Shown: positions 1 through 4,117 of the stretch, piece by piece
How the letters are laid out: every line of letters starts with the position of its first letter
How positions within the stretch are numbered: the stretch's first letter is position 1
NCBI GenBank assembly: GCA_000004985.1
Contig: GG739197.1
Origin: Naegleria gruberi
Lineage: Eukaryota
Strand: one strand, 5' to 3'
Length of the DNA: 4,128 nucleotides
The notes under the pieces: generated by a model
Told to the model about the DNA's origin: nothing
Database searches by the model: none
Seen by the model: the letters and a program-made list of their open reading frames with translations, nothing else
Program-made: the position numbers and the translations under genes

Positions 1-209
1 TAATACTTTTTACATGTGGAAAGTGTTCTATCATCATGCTCCTCTCCGACGTGATAACTAGCCGTACCACAAGAATCAACAATGAAATCAACTTTTGCCT
101 TCTTTTCCTTTATCAAAGCCAACATGACAATCTCTGCCATTGGTGACCGACAAATATTTCCGAGACAAACAAAACATACAGAACAATTCTTCCCTGATTG
201 AGCTGACAT
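1..209 (-). CDS. LTP1: Low-molecular-weight phosphotyrosine protein phosphatase (LMW-PTP), N-terminal 69 codons; the rest of the gene runs off the left edge of the window
   Basis: Hand translation of the reverse complement from ATG at 207-209 gives MSAQSGKNCSVCFVCLGNICRSPMAEIVMLALIKEKKAKVDFIVDSCGTASYHVGEEHDDRTLSTCKKY. It contains the LMW-PTP catalytic P-loop V-C-L-G-N-I-C-R-S (CX5R-S) and the downstream D-S-x-G-T-x-x-Y-H-x-G motif. It also has a yeast-like A-rich context before the ATG (caatacataaaaaATG on the minus strand). It is missing from the ORF track only because no stop codon falls inside the window. Confidence 0.85.
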   Translation of the reverse strand, partial: MSAQSGKNCSVCFVCLGNICRSPMAEIVMLALIKEKKAKVDFIVDSCGTASYHVGEEHDDRTLSTCKKY

Positions 210-337
210 TTTTTATGTATTGTTTTTTCAATTTTCTTTGTTATATACAAAAGCAATTAGATAATATTGAAGGCAAGCCAAGTTTCGTCCTTTGCATTTT
301 GGATTTGTTTTGGAAATAGACATAGTTCGTTCCGTTA

Positions 338-358
338 GCATTGTTTTTGGCATTGTTT
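338..358 (-). promoter_or_regulatory. Direct repeat GCATTGTTT x2 (338-346 and 350-358): HMG-box / Rox1-type ATTGTT cores about 130-150 bp upstream of the LTP1-like ATG
   Basis: agcattgtttttggcattgtttaaag was read directly. YYYATTGTT is the core of the yeast Rox1/Rfg1 hypoxic-repressor site. The functional assignment is only an inference. Confidence 0.2.
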
Positions 359-480
359 AAAGAAATATAGAATAGTTTCAAAATCAAAATTTCACTCTCA
401 TTTATATTATATACAATCTTAGTATCTTTGAGTTTACAATTAATACTCTTAAATTACAATTTCAAAGCTGGATATCAAAA

Positions 481-795
481 TTATTGAATGGAACATTCCT
501 TCTTTTCACCTTCCTGAGGAGCAGTCTCTGATGAGGCTGCAGCAACATCGGATGCACCCTCAAACTCTCCAACTATATACTTTTGCATGTCACTCTTAGC
601 ACTACTTCCATGACCAGCATCATTGAAGGCCTTTGTGCCATCTTTACCAGCCCATTCGAGAATGACATCTTCACCACCCGGATGTTCATCCTTATACGTT
701 CCAAAGGCTACAACCTTTCCCGAGATAATAATCCAAGGATCTTGATGATTTGGACCATGTTCTTCAACTTCAGAGAGTGCAATGTTTCTCACCAT
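481..795 (-). CDS. Cytochrome b5-like heme-binding protein, 104 aa, soluble form with an acidic C-terminal tail and no hydrophobic membrane anchor
   Basis: ATG at 793-795 (minus strand) and TAA at 481-483. The product is MVRNIALSEVEEHGPNHQDPWIIISGKVVAFGTYKDEHPGGEDVILEWAGKDGTKAFNDAGHGSSA... It carries the cytochrome b5 signature HPGGE plus the second axial His in AGHG. It is close to the yeast CYB5 N-terminal pattern (EVxEHNGP..WIII.gKVYDv..FkDEHPGG). The C-terminus GASDVAAASSETAPQEGEKKECSIQ is polar and lacks any transmembrane segment. The context before the ATG is A-rich. Confidence 0.85.
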   Translation of the reverse strand: MVRNIALSEVEEHGPNHQDPWIIISGKVVAFGTYKDEHPGGEDVILEWAGKDGTKAFNDAGHGSSAKSDMQKYIVGEFEGASDVAAASSETAPQEGEKKECSIQ

Positions 796-992
796 TTTGT
801 ATGTTTCTATATTATTGTTGTTTTGTTTTTTTCAAATTGTTGTTTTACTGTCTTGTATCCAAAGCTGACAAATTTATTCTCCAAATAGATCTAAATGATG
901 AGGAGTATTGGGAGAATGGGGTAATATTGGATTCTGAATATGTACAAATGGGAGTTTTTTACTGGGAATAAGGACGTTAGAGATTCGAATCT

Positions 993-999
993 ATATAAT
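993..999 (-). promoter_or_regulatory. Candidate TATA box (TATATAA) about 200 bp upstream of the cytochrome b5 ATG
   Basis: ctatataatt is at 991-1000 and is the only canonical TATAWAW in the 796-1100 interval. The assignment rests on position alone. Confidence 0.2.
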
Positions 1000-1291
1000 T
1001 ATGTTGAAAATAATTACTGCTCTGATGGAATGGATAATGCATGTTATGAATTGATTAATAAATAGAAGAAGTTGTAATACAAGTACCAGAACAAACACTT
1101 GAATCTAAAGAGGACTCTCAAGTAAAGAAGCAAGGAAGAAAACGAAAGAATATATGAACTAACATTGTAAATAAACAATGAGTTGCTCTTTCGTCCTTTC
1201 TTGGAAAGGTTGGTTAAGTATTCAGAGTTCTTTAAAGATCTAAAACAGTCAGTAAAAGATGTTTAAAAATTAATACTTTTATTAATATCGT

Positions 1292-2101
1292 TCAATGTAG
1301 ATTTTCAAGTATCTCAAATAAAATCACTAAATTTGATCTGACTGAGAAATGCGGTATGTGGTTGCCAAATTTTTTGTAATAACTTGGCGGATTTTTCATT
1401 ATCCTTCTTTGGACATAAAATATAGTCTTCATTGAGTTCAAAGTGAGTCTCGTGCTTAACATATGTTCTGCAACTTCATTGATCTTCAACGTCTTGTCTT
1501 TCATACTTATAGCTCCGTTCAGAGATTCTCTAATATATTTTGATTCTTTGTTATTATAGTTGTTTTCCAAATGTGCAACAAGGTTTGTTTTAAATATCTC
1601 AGAACTATAATGAGTGTAAACAACTAAAATATCTTCTGGTTCAACAACTCCCATAATTAAATATCTAAAAGCTCTAGTTTGGGTATAGAACTCTGACTTA
1701 AATTTTGATTTGGCCTTCAGTGCCACACTTCTTTTATGTACAGCTGCAATTTGGACTTTATGGCTATTGTCATATTTAAACTCCCATCTCTTTGATATTT
1801 CATCAGTAGTGGTTCCAATGTATCTTAGAACTTCACCACCGAATCTAACAAAAGCACAGTAAATTATGTCATTACTCTTGTGCATATCAATTGCTTTTGC
1901 AAGTAAATTGAAATCCTTAATAATATTCTTGGGTTCTCGTTTCTCTTTTAACCAAGAAAACAATGGATTTGTAGTGGTGTTCAATTCACCAAGAGATTTG
2001 ATGAGGATGTTCAATTCTGGTTTGTTATCTTGACAATCCTTCGTCACTTTGTCAAAAGCAATTACTTTATCAGGATCCACTAATCTTGTAACTGATCGCA
2101 T
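1292..2101 (-). CDS. GIY-YIG superfamily nuclease-domain protein (T5orf172/MUG113-like core), 269 aa from the first in-frame ATG at 2099-2101. The ORF track extends to 2245 only because codon 1 there is TTG, which is not a eukaryotic start.
   Basis: This is a long uninterrupted minus-strand ORF with a TAA stop at 1292-1294. Track residues 126-230 (nt ~1556-1870) read DIIYCAFVRFGGEVLRYIGTTTDEISKRWEFKYDNSH...EPEDILVVYTHYSSEIFKTNLVAHLENNYN. That gives Tyr of 'IIY', then 12 residues, then 'YIG-T-T', then 'KRW' seven residues later, then an aromatic residue, then a Glu about 60 residues on and an Asn-rich 'ENNYN'. This is the spacing and residue set of the GIY-YIG catalytic core. Compare I-TevI, recalled from memory: GIYQIKNTLNNKVYVGSAKDFEKRWKRH ... 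ERENFWIKELNS..NGYN. The (K/R)-I-G-x-T-x-x-x-x-x-R-x-x-E shape is typical of the T5orf172/MUG113 subfamily that is widespread in fungi. No HMM or BLAST could be run. Confidence 0.5.
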   Translation of the reverse strand: MRSVTRLVDPDKVIAFDKVTKDCQDNKPELNILIKSLGELNTTTNPLFSWLKEKREPKNIIKDFNLLAKAIDMHKSNDIIYCAFVRFGGEVLRYIGTTTDEISKRWEFKYDNSHKVQIAAVHKRSVALKAKSKFKSEFYTQTRAFRYLIMGVVEPEDILVVYTHYSSEIFKTNLVAHLENNYNNKESKYIRESLNGAISMKDKTLKINEVAEHMLSTRLTLNSMKTIFYVQRRIMKNPPSYYKKFGNHIPHFSVRSNLVILFEILENLH

Positions 2102-2511
2102 GTAGTTCCCTCCTTTAATGGGATTCTTCTTGTAATGAATTGAGATGTTCTTCGTCAGATTTGAGAGTGAACTAGTATTGTTTAGAGAAAAAAAATGTCC
2201 CTTCTCCACGCCAAATAGACCAATTGAAGAACACCAACAAAGCAACCGAATATTTGCAAATGGCCAAGGTAAAAACTTTTCTATAGAATTTACATTTAAT
2301 GATGAATATACCCGCTAAATTATTTTGATGATAATTTTAACAATTTTTTCGTCAAATTTTAACGTATCAGATTGCAAAATTATGAAATAAAGTTTATTGA
2401 AAAATGTTAAAAATTGATGCTTAAAGCATAATAAAATCGTCAACAAGTGTTGGGAGAAAAATTCCAAATTAACGCGCAATTGACGTCAAGAATTATCGTC
2501 AATTCTTAATG

Positions 2512-2551
2512 ATTTATTATCAATTTTTGACGTCAAAAATTGATAATAAAT
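2512..2551. repeat. Perfect 40-bp palindrome (inverted repeat with no spacer) centred on the CRE/ATF octamer TGACGTCA (AatII site GACGTC)
   Basis: ATTTATTATCAATTTTTGAC|GTCAAAAATTGATAATAAAT was verified base by base. Position 2532+k is the complement of 2531-k for k=0..19, and the first mismatch is at k=20 (2511 g / 2552 t). Each arm contains AAAATTGATAATAAAT, which has GATAA and ATTGAT cores. Confidence 0.9.
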
Positions 2552-2571
2552 TGATAATGTTTTGTATCAAA

Positions 2572-2593
2572 TATTGATGAAAAAACATCAATA
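2572..2593. repeat. Hairpin-forming inverted repeat: 8-bp stem TATTGATG/CATCAATA around an A6 loop
   Basis: 2572-2579 tattgatg and 2586-2593 catcaata are exact reverse complements, with a loop aaaaaa at 2580-2585. It shares the ATTGAT core with the 40-bp palindrome arms. Confidence 0.8.
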
Positions 2594-2622
2594 ATTACGT
2601 CAAAAAATTCATAATAATTATT

Positions 2623-2635
2623 GTCAATTATTGAC
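2623..2635. repeat. 13-bp palindrome GTCAAT-t-ATTGAC
   Basis: 2623-2635 gtcaattattgac: the arms GTCAAT and ATTGAC are reverse complements around a single central T. It again combines the GTCAA and ATTGA cores seen throughout 2349-2640. Confidence 0.8.
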
Positions 2636-2970
2636 TAAATTCCAGCAATTATTTACTCCAAAATCTTGTAAAATTTCCAAGTTCCAAACTCATCTATTAT
2701 TAGATCCACTTCCATTCCAAATTTCAAACCGAAAAAAATATCTACACTCCTCATCCTCACTCCAACTGATGAAATATCACTCACCTCTTCAGTTACATTC
2801 AAAATTAATGATAATAAATCAAAATTACTTACATTGTTTTCTGTTCAAAATCTGTTGCTTGCATATAAATCGTGCTGTTTAGCACAAATTGAATTATAAC
2901 AAATTACCTAATTTCTTGTGATGAATAATTTTGATGATCCGTAGCAGGTAAAATCATATAATATAAAAAT

Positions 2971-3069
2971 AATACAACAAACCAATTTCGAAGAATAAAA
3001 TCTTTATAAATCCAACTAACAATAATTAAAAAATTAAGAAATTAAGAAATTTAAATACAACAAACCAAT
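2971..3069. repeat. 16-bp direct repeat AATACAACAAACCAAT present twice (2971-2986 and 3054-3069), each copy containing a CCAAT box
   Basis: An exact 16/16 match was read directly from the sequence, with 83 bp between starts. It lies in an A/C-rich tract that has no ORF. Confidence 0.7.
3031..3051. repeat. Short tandem repeat, 8-bp unit (ATTAAGAA), about 2.6 copies
   Basis: aaattaagaaattaagaaatt shows period-8 identity from 3031 to 3051, checked position by position. Confidence 0.6.
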
Positions 3070-3276
3070 AAACAATAAACTCCGCCAACAATTATTGTAT
3101 TAACAAATTAATGATACTATTCAATATTTAATGAGTGATCACTGATGATTTTAAATTGTAGTAAAAATAATGTTGTAGTACTAACCGACAGTTTTGTATG
3201 ATATGATGAGGGAGTTAATGTGTAGACATTTTTTTATTAAAAATAATTTCCGATTTAGTAACCCAACATTTTACAA

Positions 3277-3465
3277 TCAACATTCATCATCACTCATATC
3301 ATCAGTGGAATCCTCTTCAATGGTTTCTTCCTCACAAGAGGATGATCCAGAATCATTGTTTTCCTCTCTTTCTTTTCTCTTTTTTGAGGTGGTCTCCTCA
3401 AGTTCTGTCTTCTTCTTCTTCTTTACTGATTCATTTTGTTTTGCACCCTTCTGCAAATTCTGCAT
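3277..3465 (-). CDS. Possible small (62 aa) highly charged Lys/Glu/Ser/Asp-rich protein; it could equally be a low-complexity artefact
   Basis: It has a true ATG at 3463-3465 with caaaaATG context and TGA at 3277-3279. The product is MQNLQKGAKQNESVKKKKKTELEETTSKKRKEREENNDSGSSSCEEETIEEDSTDDMSDDEC, with a basic NLS-like stretch followed by an acidic Ser/Asp tail (CK2-like sites). It fully overlaps a plus-strand Ser-rich ORF (3194-3481) that looks less protein-like. Confidence 0.25.
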   Translation of the reverse strand: MQNLQKGAKQNESVKKKKKTELEETTSKKRKEREENNDSGSSSCEEETIEEDSTDDMSDDEC

Positions 3466-3588
3466 TTTTGAAACACTATAATGATTTAGTTGATGAGAAT
3501 GAAAGAATTAAGAAAGAATTGGCTAGATATAAACAGGCAGTCAAAATATGAATGAAATGATTAATCAAATGGTGAGCTGTTTAGATGA

Positions 3589-4117
3589 GTATCAAGATGT
3601 CTTTGCATAGGGAGACTCTATTGTGCATCAACCAAAGAAAATTCAAAATCTTTGAAACAAACTCGATACTCAATAAGAATACACCCTAAATATGATACAA
3701 TTAATCTTGCACCCTTTAGAGATATAGAGTATTGGAAAAATCACATTCAAAAAGGGAATTTTGATCAAGGGTTGAAATCAATTTCACCAATTTTGGATCA
3801 AGATTGGAATCCATCACCATCAGATATTTGTTGCTATGATTCAATGCATGTATTATATGAAGGAGTTTTCCAAGAAATGATGAAAATGATCCCTATTCAA
3901 TACTGGGAAAGATTTGACATTGTTTCTGAAACAAAAGTATCCATCATTCCTTCACAAGCATCCTAGAAAGACCACAAATGGCCAGATTTTGAACAGTCTA
4001 AAGGCAATTGAAATTTACATGATCTGTCATTATTATTTAGAGCTGTTTACGCATATCGAAGGATTTAAGGAAATAGAATCAAAGGTTGAAATATTCATAG
4101 ATTGCCTCTATAATTGA
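3589..4117 (+). pseudogene. Decayed transposase-like gene, possibly Transposase_21 / Tnp2 (CACTA, EnSpm, KDZ/Plavaka-type) family. It is an internal fragment with no ATG start, at least one frameshift near 3890-3966, and continues past the window end.
   Basis: Frame 1 is open from 3589 with no start codon; the track ORF at 3652 begins on TTG. It reads ...APFRDIEYWKNHIQKGNF...DICCYDSMHVLYEGVFQEMMKMI... Frame 2 is open from 3890 and reads ...SFLHKHPRKTTNGQILNSLKAIEIYMICHYYLELF... up to TGA at 4118. The EYWK ... D-x-M-H-x-x-x-E-G-V-x-x-x-M segment resembles the conserved (E)LPYWK ... LDVMHIEKNV block of Tnp2-family transposases as I recall it. The spacing differs and nothing was searched. Confidence 0.3.

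What the first reader, a model, noticed from the sequence alone, without database searches (positions are those of the whole stretch)
2512..2551. Perfect 40-bp palindrome centred on TGACGTCA directly upstream of the nuclease ORF
A spacer-less 40-bp perfect inverted repeat is very unlikely by chance in 4 kb, even at 70% AT. Such sequences are cruciform-prone and usually unstable unless maintained. The arms are AAAATTGATAATAAAT and the centre is a canonical CRE/ATF octamer. The same ATTGAT, GATAA and CGTCAA building blocks recur around it (2480-2489, 2572-2593, 2623-2635), so the palindrome is the core of a structured element, not an isolated accident. It could be a symmetric binding site for a dimeric regulator, a cruciform or fragile site, a replication or recombination hotspot, or a candidate recognition or cleavage site for the adjacent nuclease.
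Basis: seen in the sequence. Interest (0 to 1): 0.6.

Follow-up and report, generated by a model that had tools for sequence, protein, structure and literature searches.

The report
Perfect palindrome in Naegleria intergenic repeats
A real 40-base perfect palindrome sits inside a small cluster of repeated TTGACG motifs between two genes of the amoeba Naegleria gruberi; it is most likely a locally duplicated protein-binding site of an ordinary kind, and nothing ties it to the neighbouring gene, which could not be shown to be a nuclease.

Summary
Bases 2512-2551 are a spacer-less, perfect 40-bp palindrome centred on TGACGTCA. The next longest perfect palindrome in the window is 12 bp, and 2000 simulations never exceeded 28 bp. 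The window is a complete 4128-bp contig of Naegleria gruberi.

The palindrome is the best-preserved unit of a ~290-bp array (2346-2635). CGTCAA/TTGACG occurs 8 times there and nowhere else (0.94 expected). The array also holds a 47-bp tandem repeat, an 11-bp tandem repeat and several short dyads. It lies 250-500 bp upstream of the ATG of the orphan gene NAEGRDRAFT_54893.

The "GIY-YIG nuclease" label is not supported. Pfam, NCBIfam, PHROGs and PDB give no hit, hhalign against I-TevI gives 0.18% probability, and the AlphaFold models are unusable. The gene's only relative worldwide lies on a 179-kb, densely packed metagenome contig.

No related copy of the palindrome was found in the viral, metagenome or prokaryotic collections. 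The N. gruberi genome itself could not be searched.

Best reading, at moderate confidence: a homotypic cluster of CRE-like sites for a dimeric DNA-binding protein. It grew by local duplication, and a recent template switch made the 40-mer perfect. A purely neutral duplication product is almost as likely. Interest is low to moderate.

The parts
2512..2551 (.). Perfect spacer-less 40-bp palindrome, with 16-bp arms AAAATTGATAATAAAT around TGACGTCA
   Evidence: As single-stranded DNA it forms a hairpin of -14.3 kcal/mol, z = -6.8.
2528..2535 (.). Central octamer TGACGTCA, identical to the CRE/ATF consensus. It can also be read as the junction of two 13-bp dyads, ATCAATTTTTGAC (2519-2531) and GTCAAAAATTGAT (2532-2544).
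2480..2489 (.). Second full site, TTGACGTCAA (a 10-bp palindrome), 47 bp to the left of the first
2594..2603 (+). Near-full site ATTACGTCAA. It is followed by AAAAATTCATAATAA, a 93% inverted match to the palindrome's left arm, so it is a further direct copy of the right-arm unit.
   Evidence: I14
2346..2355 (+). Half-site TTTTCGTCAA
2434..2443 (+). Half-site AAATCGTCAA
2493..2502 (+). Half-site TTATCGTCAA
2479..2577 (.). Tandem repeat of period 47 bp, 2.1 copies, 75% matches. The palindrome spans the junction of copies 1 and 2.
2537..2558 (+). Perfect 11-bp tandem duplication, AAATTGATAAT x2. Its first 15 bases (2537-2551) lie inside the right arm.
2566..2578 (.). 13-bp dyad ATCAAATATTGAT, which fits RTCAA-W3-TTGAY
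2573..2592 (.). Inverted repeat ATTGATG-AAAAAA-CATCAAT
2623..2635 (.). 13-bp dyad GTCAATTATTGAC. The stretch 2618-2635 is 89% identical to 2514-2531.
   Evidence: (D3)
2346..2635 (.). The whole motif and dyad array. It holds every CGTCAA/TTGACG copy in the window. CpG observed/expected is 2.4 in 2340-2610, against 0.51 for the whole window.
1292..2101 (-). Downstream gene NAEGRDRAFT_54893 (P0001, 269 aa, orphan).

Best explanation
The 40-bp palindrome is the best-preserved unit of a ~290-bp array (2346-2635). The array is built from direct and inverted copies of one AT-rich unit whose core is TTGACG/CGTCAA. It lies in the 1.2-kb non-coding spacer, 250-500 bp upstream of the ATG of the orphan gene NAEGRDRAFT_54893 on the - strand.

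Function (inferred): it is a homotypic cluster of binding sites for a dimeric sequence-specific DNA-binding protein.
- It contains two full TGACGTCA sites (the ATF/CREB-type bZIP consensus), one TTACGTCA site and three TCGTCAA half-sites.
- A dimer would sit on the central octamer.
- The flanking A5/T5 tracts and TTGATAA arms would be accessory sites or passengers.
- The cluster would regulate the adjacent gene.

Origin (inferred from the repeat anatomy): the array grew by local slippage duplication, seen as the 47-bp and 11-bp tandem repeats. The perfect symmetry of the 40-mer comes from a recent intrastrand template switch, in which one arm of an imperfect palindrome was copied onto the other. 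It does not reflect selection on all 40 positions.

Shown directly: the palindrome, the motif cluster, the repeats and the position relative to the gene.
Inferred: protein binding, the regulatory role and the template switch.

I put about 0.6 on the origin statement and about 0.35 on the regulatory function. The overall figure of 0.4 is a compromise between the two.
For: - Palindrome: it is far beyond chance.
- Motif enrichment: CGTCAA has 8 matches against 0.94 expected, with 0 of 200 shuffles reaching 8. All matches lie in 2350-2603. The probability that six loci fall in a 254-bp span is 5e-6.
- Strongest hexamer: CGTCAA is the most enriched hexamer of the region, 8 copies against 0 in the remaining 3.8 kb.
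- CpG: observed/expected is 2.4 in the array against 0.51 in the window. Six of the nine CpGs in the array sit in the motif.
- Dyads: the 13-bp pattern RTCAAWWWTTGAY gives 4 perfect and 2 one-mismatch copies inside the array, against 0.71 expected. The pattern was chosen after seeing the sequence.
- Symmetry density: the 141-nt stretch folds into five adjacent hairpins, z = -5.5.
- Duplication origin: 47-bp x2.1 and 11-bp x2 tandem repeats. Unit 2 carries an imperfect counterpart (73%) of the palindrome's left half (D2). Other copies of the unit are 82-93% identical (D3-D6 and I14).
- Duplication is common here: TRF finds seven rows in 4.1 kb, describing about six short tandem-repeat arrays, most of them outside ORFs with homology support.
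- Position: the array is non-coding and upstream of a gene.
- Background: TGACGTCA as the ATF/CREB site, and CGTCA as its functional half-site, are established knowledge. Promoter elements of Naegleria are undefined (PMC13315211).
Against: - No orthologous or paralogous copy of the region could be retrieved, so there is no conservation evidence at all.
- The four non-palindromic sites are all co-oriented, and tandem periods are present. Duplication alone can therefore explain the motif multiplicity without selection.
- The 16-bp arms exceed the footprint of any bZIP dimer.
- The transcription start site is unknown, and 430 bp from the ATG is rather far for a compact genome.
- The dominant specific transcription-factor family reported for Naegleria is the C6 zinc cluster, not bZIP (PMC3537659). 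I did not verify that N. gruberi encodes an ATF/CREB-like bZIP.
- The gene is an orphan on an unplaced 4-kb contig that also carries a frameshifted pseudogene-like fragment, so the locus may not be under much constraint.
Confidence: 0.4

Rival explanations
1. Neutral by-product. The array is a small degenerating minisatellite in AT-rich spacer DNA. Replication slippage and template switching made the palindrome recently, and it has no function. The match of the centre to the CRE octamer is incidental: it is simply the junction of two GTCAA/TTGAC-ended units.
For: - 47-bp and 11-bp tandem repeats overlap the palindrome.
- All non-palindromic CGTCAA sites are co-oriented, as in tandem arrays.
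- Short tandem repeats are frequent in this contig's spacers.
- The octamer can be read as the abutment of two 13-bp dyads.
- The palindrome is perfect while neighbouring copies are only 73-93% identical, which indicates a young event.
- No conservation data exist.
Against: - The core hexamer is kept intact in six loci while the flanks have diverged, in a CpG-depleted sequence. This argument is partly circular, because the sites were found by their core.
- The spacings are irregular (13-88 bp) rather than a clean period.
- The core equals a deeply conserved transcription-factor site.
Confidence: 0.35
2. Cis-acting site of a mobile or virus-derived element. Candidates are subterminal transposase-binding repeats or a foldback/MITE element, a recombinase core site (16-bp inverted arms around an 8-bp centre, a loxP/FRT-like geometry), or an origin-like dyad and iteron array. 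Such an element would have arrived together with the orphan gene.
For: - Arrays of one short motif in both orientations are typical of transposon subterminal regions and of viral or plasmid origins (my own knowledge).
- The only relative of P0001 among 1.84 billion representative proteins (P0002, E = 5.6e-17) lies on a 179-kb, densely packed metagenome contig with Ank/BTB, F-box-like and DUF4116 proteins, which looks like a giant virus.
- The cytochrome b5 protein of this contig is identical to one on a 312-kb scaffold, while P0001 is annotated only here. The contig could therefore be a haplotype-specific variant.
- A frameshifted gene fragment lies 1 kb to the right.
Against: - No transposase, integrase or replication-initiator domain was found in any ORF tested.
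- The right-hand fragment has a single paralogue worldwide, at 58% identity, and not a multi-copy family.
- No terminal inverted repeat pair or target-site duplication stands out. The best candidate has 25-nt arms at 72% (I9).
- No match in viral contigs, phages or plasmids.
- The relative's contig has no comparable motif.
- An independent metagenome contig of the same species shows the same order of phosphatase, cytochrome b5 and P0001 3' end.
Confidence: 0.1
3. Recognition or cleavage site of the protein encoded by the adjacent ORF, as suggested by the first reader.
For: - The two are close, 430 bp apart.
- P0001 and P0002 share a motif, DI[IL]YCAFV..GE..RYIG.T..I..RW. hhalign places it on the YVG..FEKRW motif of I-TevI.
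Against: - That alignment is not significant: probability 0.18%, E = 0.32, 17 columns.
- No hit in Pfam, NCBIfam, PHROGs or PDB, even at E <= 10.
- The structure models have pLDDT around 32.
- Characterised GIY-YIG homing endonucleases are monomers with long asymmetric targets inside conserved genes, not palindromes in spacers (my own knowledge).
- The relative's locus has no such palindrome.
Confidence: 0.03
4. Assembly or cloning artefact, such as a foldback chimera, on a small unplaced contig.
For: - The contig is only 4128 bp and unplaced.
- Part of it duplicates a 312-kb scaffold at the protein level.
Against: - The symmetry is confined to 40 bp and the flanks are unrelated. A foldback chimera would mirror the whole flank.
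- The palindrome is embedded in diverged copies of the same unit, which an artefact would not create.
- The left 1.36 kb of the contig is confirmed at up to 99-100% identity in four of five segments (83% in the 212-480 spacer) by an independent metagenome assembly. That assembly does not reach the palindrome.
Confidence: 0.04
5. Hairpin RNA precursor. If the spacer is transcribed, it would yield an 18-20-bp perfect stem, an siRNA- or miRNA-like substrate.
For: - Perfect stem, with a fold z-score of -5.5 to -6.8.
- As far as I recall, N. gruberi encodes RNAi components (my own knowledge).
Against: - The only Rfam match is MIR8706 at 21.7 bits against a gathering score of 95, E = 0.91, which is noise.
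- The stem is almost pure A/T with a 4-nt loop.
- There is no evidence of transcription.
Confidence: 0.03

Closest known systems
cAMP-response-element (CRE) type promoter clusters: full TGACGTCA sites plus CGTCA half-sites bound by ATF/CREB bZIP dimers (related: the plant as-1 TGACG repeats)
   Same: The exact octamer occurs twice, with one TTACGTCA variant and three TCGTCAA half-sites within 254 bp. The sites lie upstream of a gene, and the symmetric site suits a dimer.
   Different: The symmetry extends to 40 bp, well beyond a bZIP footprint. No binding protein is known in Naegleria and there is no evidence of conservation. The sites carry the signature of recent local duplication.
Quasi-palindrome template-switch products and palindromic AT-rich repeats
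   Same: AT-rich, spacer-less and perfect arms. Imperfect paralogous copies lie next to it, and it is embedded in slippage-type tandem repeats.
   Different: At 40 bp it is much shorter than the human AT-rich palindromes known to be fragile. No instability has been shown here.
Recombinase core sites such as loxP and FRT (inverted arms around an 8-bp centre)
   Same: The geometry, 16 + 8 + 16 bp.
   Different: The centre is itself symmetric. No recombinase gene is on the contig. Degenerate copies are scattered at irregular spacing.
Dyad-symmetry and iteron arrays of viral or plasmid replication origins, and subterminal repeats of DNA transposons (Ac/Ds, En/Spm)
   Same: Many copies of one short motif in both orientations, packed into about 300 bp.
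   Different: No initiator or transposase gene was recognised, there are no terminal inverted repeats, and the context is a eukaryotic chromosomal contig.
GIY-YIG homing endonucleases (I-TevI), as the label for the neighbouring ORF
   Same: A short IIY...RYIG...KRW motif resembles GIY...YVG...KRW.
   Different: No profile or structural support. The spacing between the Y and YIG motifs is 12 residues. Only one homologue is known, and the target logic of known enzymes does not involve palindromes.

Membership tests
CRE / ATF-CREB bZIP binding-site cluster | Presence of the octamer TGACGTCA and/or CGTCA half-sites | tested here: met
   TGACGTCA at 2481 and 2528. CGTCAA has 8 matches against 0.94 expected.
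CRE / ATF-CREB bZIP binding-site cluster | Bound by a bZIP dimer of the organism | not testable with these tools
   Needs EMSA, DAP-seq or ChIP. I did not verify the bZIP repertoire of N. gruberi. C6 zinc clusters are reported as its dominant family (PMC3537659).
CRE / ATF-CREB bZIP binding-site cluster | Promoter-proximal position relative to a transcription start site | tested here: inconclusive
   The sites lie 249-497 bp upstream of the annotated ATG at 2101. The transcription start site is unknown.
CRE / ATF-CREB bZIP binding-site cluster | Conservation of the sites at orthologous loci | not testable with these tools
   The only related DNA retrieved (L003, L004) ends at window position 1364. 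The N. gruberi and other Naegleria genomes are not in the searchable collections.
GIY-YIG nuclease superfamily (neighbouring ORF 1292-2101, - strand) | Significant match to a GIY-YIG profile | tested here: not met
   No Pfam, NCBIfam, PHROGs or PDB-sequence hit to a GIY-YIG family, even at E <= 10.
GIY-YIG nuclease superfamily (neighbouring ORF 1292-2101, - strand) | GIY-X(9-11)-YIG motif followed by a conserved Arg, with Glu and Asn further on | tested here: inconclusive
   IIY-X12-YIG-X8-R is conserved between P0001 and P0002. hhalign puts YIG..RW on the I-TevI motif YVG..KRW, but with probability 0.18% and E = 0.32.
GIY-YIG nuclease superfamily (neighbouring ORF 1292-2101, - strand) | The alpha/beta GIY-YIG fold | tested here: inconclusive
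   AlphaFold2 gave pLDDT 32.1 with a single sequence and 31.7 with a two-sequence alignment. A fold search would be meaningless.
Homing endonuclease with its homing site | Target inside a conserved host gene, interrupted by or adjacent to the endonuclease ORF or intron | tested here: not met
   The palindrome lies in non-coding spacer 430 bp from the ORF. No intron or intein context and no split host gene is visible.
Tyrosine-recombinase core site (loxP/FRT-like) | Inverted arms around a 6-8-bp centre | tested here: met
   16-bp arms around an 8-bp centre. The centre is symmetric, unlike loxP or FRT.
Tyrosine-recombinase core site (loxP/FRT-like) | A cognate recombinase encoded nearby | tested here: not met
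   No integrase or recombinase domain in the ORFs scanned.
Foldback assembly chimera | Inverted duplication continues through the flanks | tested here: not met
   Complementarity stops at 2511/2552, and the flanks are not mirror images.
Mimiviridae early promoter (AAAATTGA) | Motif enriched beyond chance and placed a short distance upstream of ORF starts | tested here: not met
   4 matches against 1.71 expected, and 24 of 200 shuffles reach 4. No credible ORF starts downstream of either copy. The relative's contig has 1 copy in 20.9 kb.
DNA-transposon subterminal repeat region or MITE | Terminal inverted repeats, a target-site duplication, a transposase, and multiple genomic copies | tested here: inconclusive
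   No convincing terminal inverted repeats (best pair 25 nt at 72%). No transposase domain. Copy number in the N. gruberi genome could not be tested.
Quasi-palindrome template-switch product | An imperfect paralogous version of the palindrome nearby, and a slippage-prone repeat context | tested here: met
   2560-2585 is a 73% direct copy of 2513-2538. The palindrome overlaps the 47-bp and 11-bp tandem repeats. The event itself is inferred.

The most novel reading that the evidence does not exclude
The palindrome and dyad array is the cis-acting site of a cassette of giant-virus or mobile-element origin. The site could be an origin, a recombination site or a cleavage target. The cassette would have delivered the orphan GIY-YIG-like gene into one haplotype of N. 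gruberi. That gene's only known relative sits on a 179-kb giant-virus-like metagenome contig. The contig would then be a haplotype-specific insertion next to the cytochrome b5 gene that is duplicated on a 312-kb scaffold.
Probability: 0.07. Interest if true: 0.6.

Novelty: new member of a known kind. Interest (0 to 1): 0.28.

Why it matters
No promoter or transcription-factor site has been defined in Naegleria. Reviews name this as an obstacle to building transgene tools (PMC13315211). A compact, testable candidate cis-element with a textbook dimer site would be a convenient first substrate for EMSA, DAP-seq or reporter assays.

The locus also shows clearly how slippage plus template switching can turn a short motif into a perfect long palindrome. 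Beyond that, the feature is ordinary. Nothing found here indicates a new kind of system.

Tried and rejected
1. Mimivirus-type early promoter. AAAAATTGA occurs in both arms and at 2409, but AAAATTGA is not enriched. No ORF follows at the right distance, and the relative's contig lacks the motif.

2. Copies of the palindrome elsewhere.
- The 26-mer core has no hit in viral contigs.
- The 18-mer TTGACGTCAAAAATTGAT gives 21 metagenome, 2 viral and 23 prokaryotic hits. None extends beyond the seed, so they are chance matches.
- The 1-kb spacer has no match in plasmids or phages.

3. More sequence around the gene.
- Exact-protein look-ups for P0001, the cytochrome b5 protein and P0005 found no recorded contig.
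- A near-identical cytochrome b5 (P0004) gave two short metagenome contigs that stop at window position 1364.

4. ORFs of 2315-4117, searched as one concatenated query. The only hit was one N. gruberi paralogue of the right-hand fragment.

5. GIY-YIG identity of the neighbouring ORF.
- Pfam, NCBIfam, PHROGs, PDB sequence and profile searches, and hhalign against I-TevI were all negative or non-significant.
- Two AlphaFold runs were unusable, so no fold search was run.
- A profile search with the conserved core found nothing more, and a scan of viral contigs found no relative.

6. Known RNA families and tRNAs: none.

7. Literature. No paper links Naegleria to TGACGTCA sites, to palindromes of this kind or to this locus tag.

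Full report
**Observation.** Bases 2512-2551 read ATTTATTATCAATTTTTGACGTCAAAAATTGATAATAAAT and are identical to their reverse complement. Symmetry ends exactly at 2511/2552.

The next longest perfect palindrome in the window is 12 bp. In 2000 first-order Markov simulations the longest was 24 bp, or 28 bp with the local 23% GC composition. Under an independent-base model the expected number of such palindromes is 5e-8 per window and at most 5e-3 in a 41-Mb genome. A copying mechanism made it, not chance. As single-stranded DNA it forms an 18-bp stem with a 4-nt loop at -14.3 kcal/mol, z = -6.8.

**Source and gene context.** The window is a complete 4128-bp contig of the amoeboflagellate Naegleria gruberi. 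The 269-aa product of 1292-2101 (- strand) is EFC35481.1 / XP_002668225.1, NAEGRDRAFT_54893, 'predicted protein', and its longest contig is 4128 bp. All recognisable genes run on the - strand:
- a partial low-molecular-weight tyrosine phosphatase at 1-211 (Pfam LMWPc, 4.5e-16);
- a cytochrome b5 at 481-795 (Pfam, 9.4e-18);
- the orphan gene at 1292-2101;
- a short acidic, lysine-rich ORF at 3277-3465.

On the + strand, 3652-4117 is a frameshifted copy of a gene whose only relative is another N. gruberi protein (P0005, 58% identity, no Pfam family). The palindrome lies in the 1.2-kb non-coding spacer between 2102 and 3276. Its centre is 430 bp upstream of the annotated ATG, so it is upstream but not 'directly' upstream.

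**Anatomy of the surroundings.** The palindrome is the core of a ~290-bp array (2346-2635).
- Motif cluster: the hexamer CGTCAA/TTGACG occurs 8 times at six loci (2350, 2438, 2480/2484, 2497, 2527/2531, 2598). All lie inside 254 bp and none lies elsewhere in the window. The expectation is 0.94, and 0 of 200 shuffles reach 8. The probability of six loci falling in such a span is 5e-6.
- Site types: two loci are full TTGACGTCAA palindromes, one is ATTACGTCAA and three are TCGTCAA half-sites. The four non-palindromic ones are co-oriented.
- CpG: observed/expected is 2.4 in the array against 0.51 for the window, and six of the nine CpGs in the array sit in the motif.
- Tandem repeats: Tandem Repeats Finder reports a 47-bp period (2479-2577, 2.1 copies, 75% matches) and a perfect 11-bp duplication (AAATTGATAAT x2, 2537-2558). 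The palindrome spans the junction of 47-bp units 1 and 2.
- Further copies of the unit: 2594-2617 (93% to the left arm, inverted), 2618-2635 (89%), 2560-2585 (73%) and 2341-2356 (81%).
- 13-bp dyad: the pattern RTCAA-W3-TTGAY occurs perfectly at 2519, 2532, 2566 and 2623, and with one mismatch at 2351 and 2406. I defined this pattern after seeing the sequence, and the copies are not independent. Read this way, the central 'CRE' octamer is simply the abutment of two such dyads.
- Folding: the 141-nt stretch folds into five adjacent hairpins, z = -5.5.

**The neighbouring 'nuclease'.** The label is not supported.
- P0001 has no hit in Pfam, NCBIfam, PHROGs or PDB sequences, even at E <= 10.
- Its only relative among 1.84 billion representative proteins is P0002 (E = 5.6e-17, 41% identity over residues 73-182).
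- A two-sequence profile finds nothing in the PDB.
- hhalign against the I-TevI catalytic domain aligns only YIG..KRW, over 17 columns, with probability 0.18% and E = 0.32.
- AlphaFold2 models have pLDDT 32, so no fold search was worthwhile.

The motif IIY-X12-YIG-X8-RW is a lead, not a membership.

P0002 lies on a 178.7-kb ENA metagenome contig. That contig has tightly packed ORFs, few Pfam domains (Ank/BTB, F-box-like, DUF4116) and an A-run directly before most start codons. It looks like a giant virus or a very compact protist genome. It carries no comparable palindrome or motif cluster.

**Related sequences.** No copy of the palindrome was found.
- The 26-mer core has no hit in viral contigs.
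- The 18-mer gives scattered chance hits in metagenomes, viral contigs and prokaryotic genomes, and none extends beyond the seed.
- The spacer has no match in plasmids or phages.

Two short contigs from one metagenome sample (ERR1078381) match window 109-1364 and 1-1113. Identity is 99-100% in four of the five segments compared, and 83% with indels in the 212-480 spacer. They confirm independently the order of phosphatase, cytochrome b5 and the 3' end of the orphan gene, but they stop 1.1 kb short of the palindrome.

The cytochrome b5 protein is identical to a second N. gruberi accession on a 312-kb scaffold, whereas P0001 is annotated only here. The contig may therefore be a haplotig or a gap-filling piece.

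**Explanation.** I commit to two linked statements.

Origin (confidence about 0.6). The array grew by local slippage duplication of a ~25-bp unit. The 40-mer became perfect through a recent intrastrand template switch that copied one arm of an imperfect palindrome onto the other. The support is as follows:
- overlapping 47-bp and 11-bp tandem repeats;
- an imperfect (73%) counterpart one repeat unit away;
- perfect arms among copies that are otherwise 73-93% identical;
- the general abundance of short tandem repeats in this contig's spacers.

Function (confidence about 0.35). The array is a homotypic cluster of sites for a dimeric DNA-binding protein that regulates the adjacent gene. The reasons are these:
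- its core equals the deeply conserved ATF/CREB bZIP site, together with its known half-site;
- the CpG-containing core is kept in six loci within CpG-poor DNA;
- it lies upstream of a gene.

Naegleria is reported to rely mainly on C6 zinc-cluster factors (PMC3537659). In fungi these also read dyads of short half-sites at variable spacing (my own knowledge). The binder therefore need not be a bZIP.

The main rival, nearly as likely, is that the array is a neutral duplication product and the CRE match is incidental. Less likely readings are a cis site of a mobile or virus-derived cassette, a target of the neighbouring protein, an assembly artefact and a hairpin RNA. The mobile-cassette idea lacks any transposase, recombinase or terminal repeat. 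The artefact idea fails because the symmetry is confined to 40 bp and is embedded in diverged copies of the same unit. The RNA idea has only noise in Rfam.

**Comparison and novelty.** In what it would work like, the closest known thing is a CRE-type cluster of full and half sites. In how it arose, the closest is a quasi-palindrome template-switch product. The sequence-level criteria for both are met. Binding, conservation and promoter position could not be tested. It is not a demonstrated member of any nuclease-target, recombinase-site, origin or transposon class. I rate it a new member of a known kind.

**Verdict.** It is probably ordinary. Its practical value is as a ready-made candidate cis-element in an organism where none has been defined (PMC13315211). 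Interest is 0.28.

Noticed in passing
window 481-795 (- strand): The cytochrome b5 protein encoded here is identical to a second N. gruberi accession (EFC39339.1) on a 312,004-bp scaffold. The neighbouring orphan gene is annotated only on this 4.1-kb contig. The contig may be an unmerged haplotype, a gap piece or a recent segmental duplicate.
   Followed up: partly
window 3652-4117 (+ strand): Two overlapping ORFs in different frames together match one N. gruberi protein (P0005, 312 aa, 58% identity, on a 712-kb scaffold). The window copy is therefore frameshifted near 3910-3920, or contains a sequencing error. The family has no Pfam domain and only these two members were found. The motif CYDSMHVLYEG reminded me of some transposase families, but no search supported that.
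   Followed up: partly
L001 (ENA ERZ12289978, NODE_41, 178.7 kb), 1-20906: The only relative of the orphan gene lies on a densely packed contig. That contig has Ank/BTB, F-box-like and DUF4116 proteins and mostly unrecognisable ORFs. A run of 5-9 A sits directly before the start codon of 11 of 13 genes. It looks like a giant virus or a very compact protist genome, but it was not classified.
   Followed up: partly
L003 and L004 against window 1-1364: Contigs from one metagenome sample (ERR1078381, PRJEB11402) carry the same N. gruberi-like locus. Coding regions and the 796-1291 spacer are 97-100% identical (99-100% apart from the 73-bp 3' end of the orphan gene). The 212-480 spacer is only 83% identical and has indels, so it is a local hotspot of divergence.
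   Followed up: partly
window 1-211 (- strand): This is the N-terminal part of a low-molecular-weight protein tyrosine phosphatase with the CLGNICRS active-site motif (Pfam LMWPc, 4.5e-16). The gene runs off the contig end.
   Followed up: yes
window 2601-2900: There is a strong excess of C over G on the + strand (GC skew down to -0.67) in non-coding DNA just to the right of the array. This may be a transcribed or untranslated region. It remains unexplained.
   Followed up: no
window 3277-3465 (- strand): A 62-aa ORF rich in Lys, Glu, Asp and Ser, with no family match. It may be a small acidic protein or an exon, and it overlaps a (TTC)n run at 3403-3423.
   Followed up: no
window 802-846, 3024-3055, 3057-3080: More short tandem repeats lie in the spacers, with periods of 22, 8 and 7 bp. 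Slippage duplication is evidently common on this contig.
   Followed up: no
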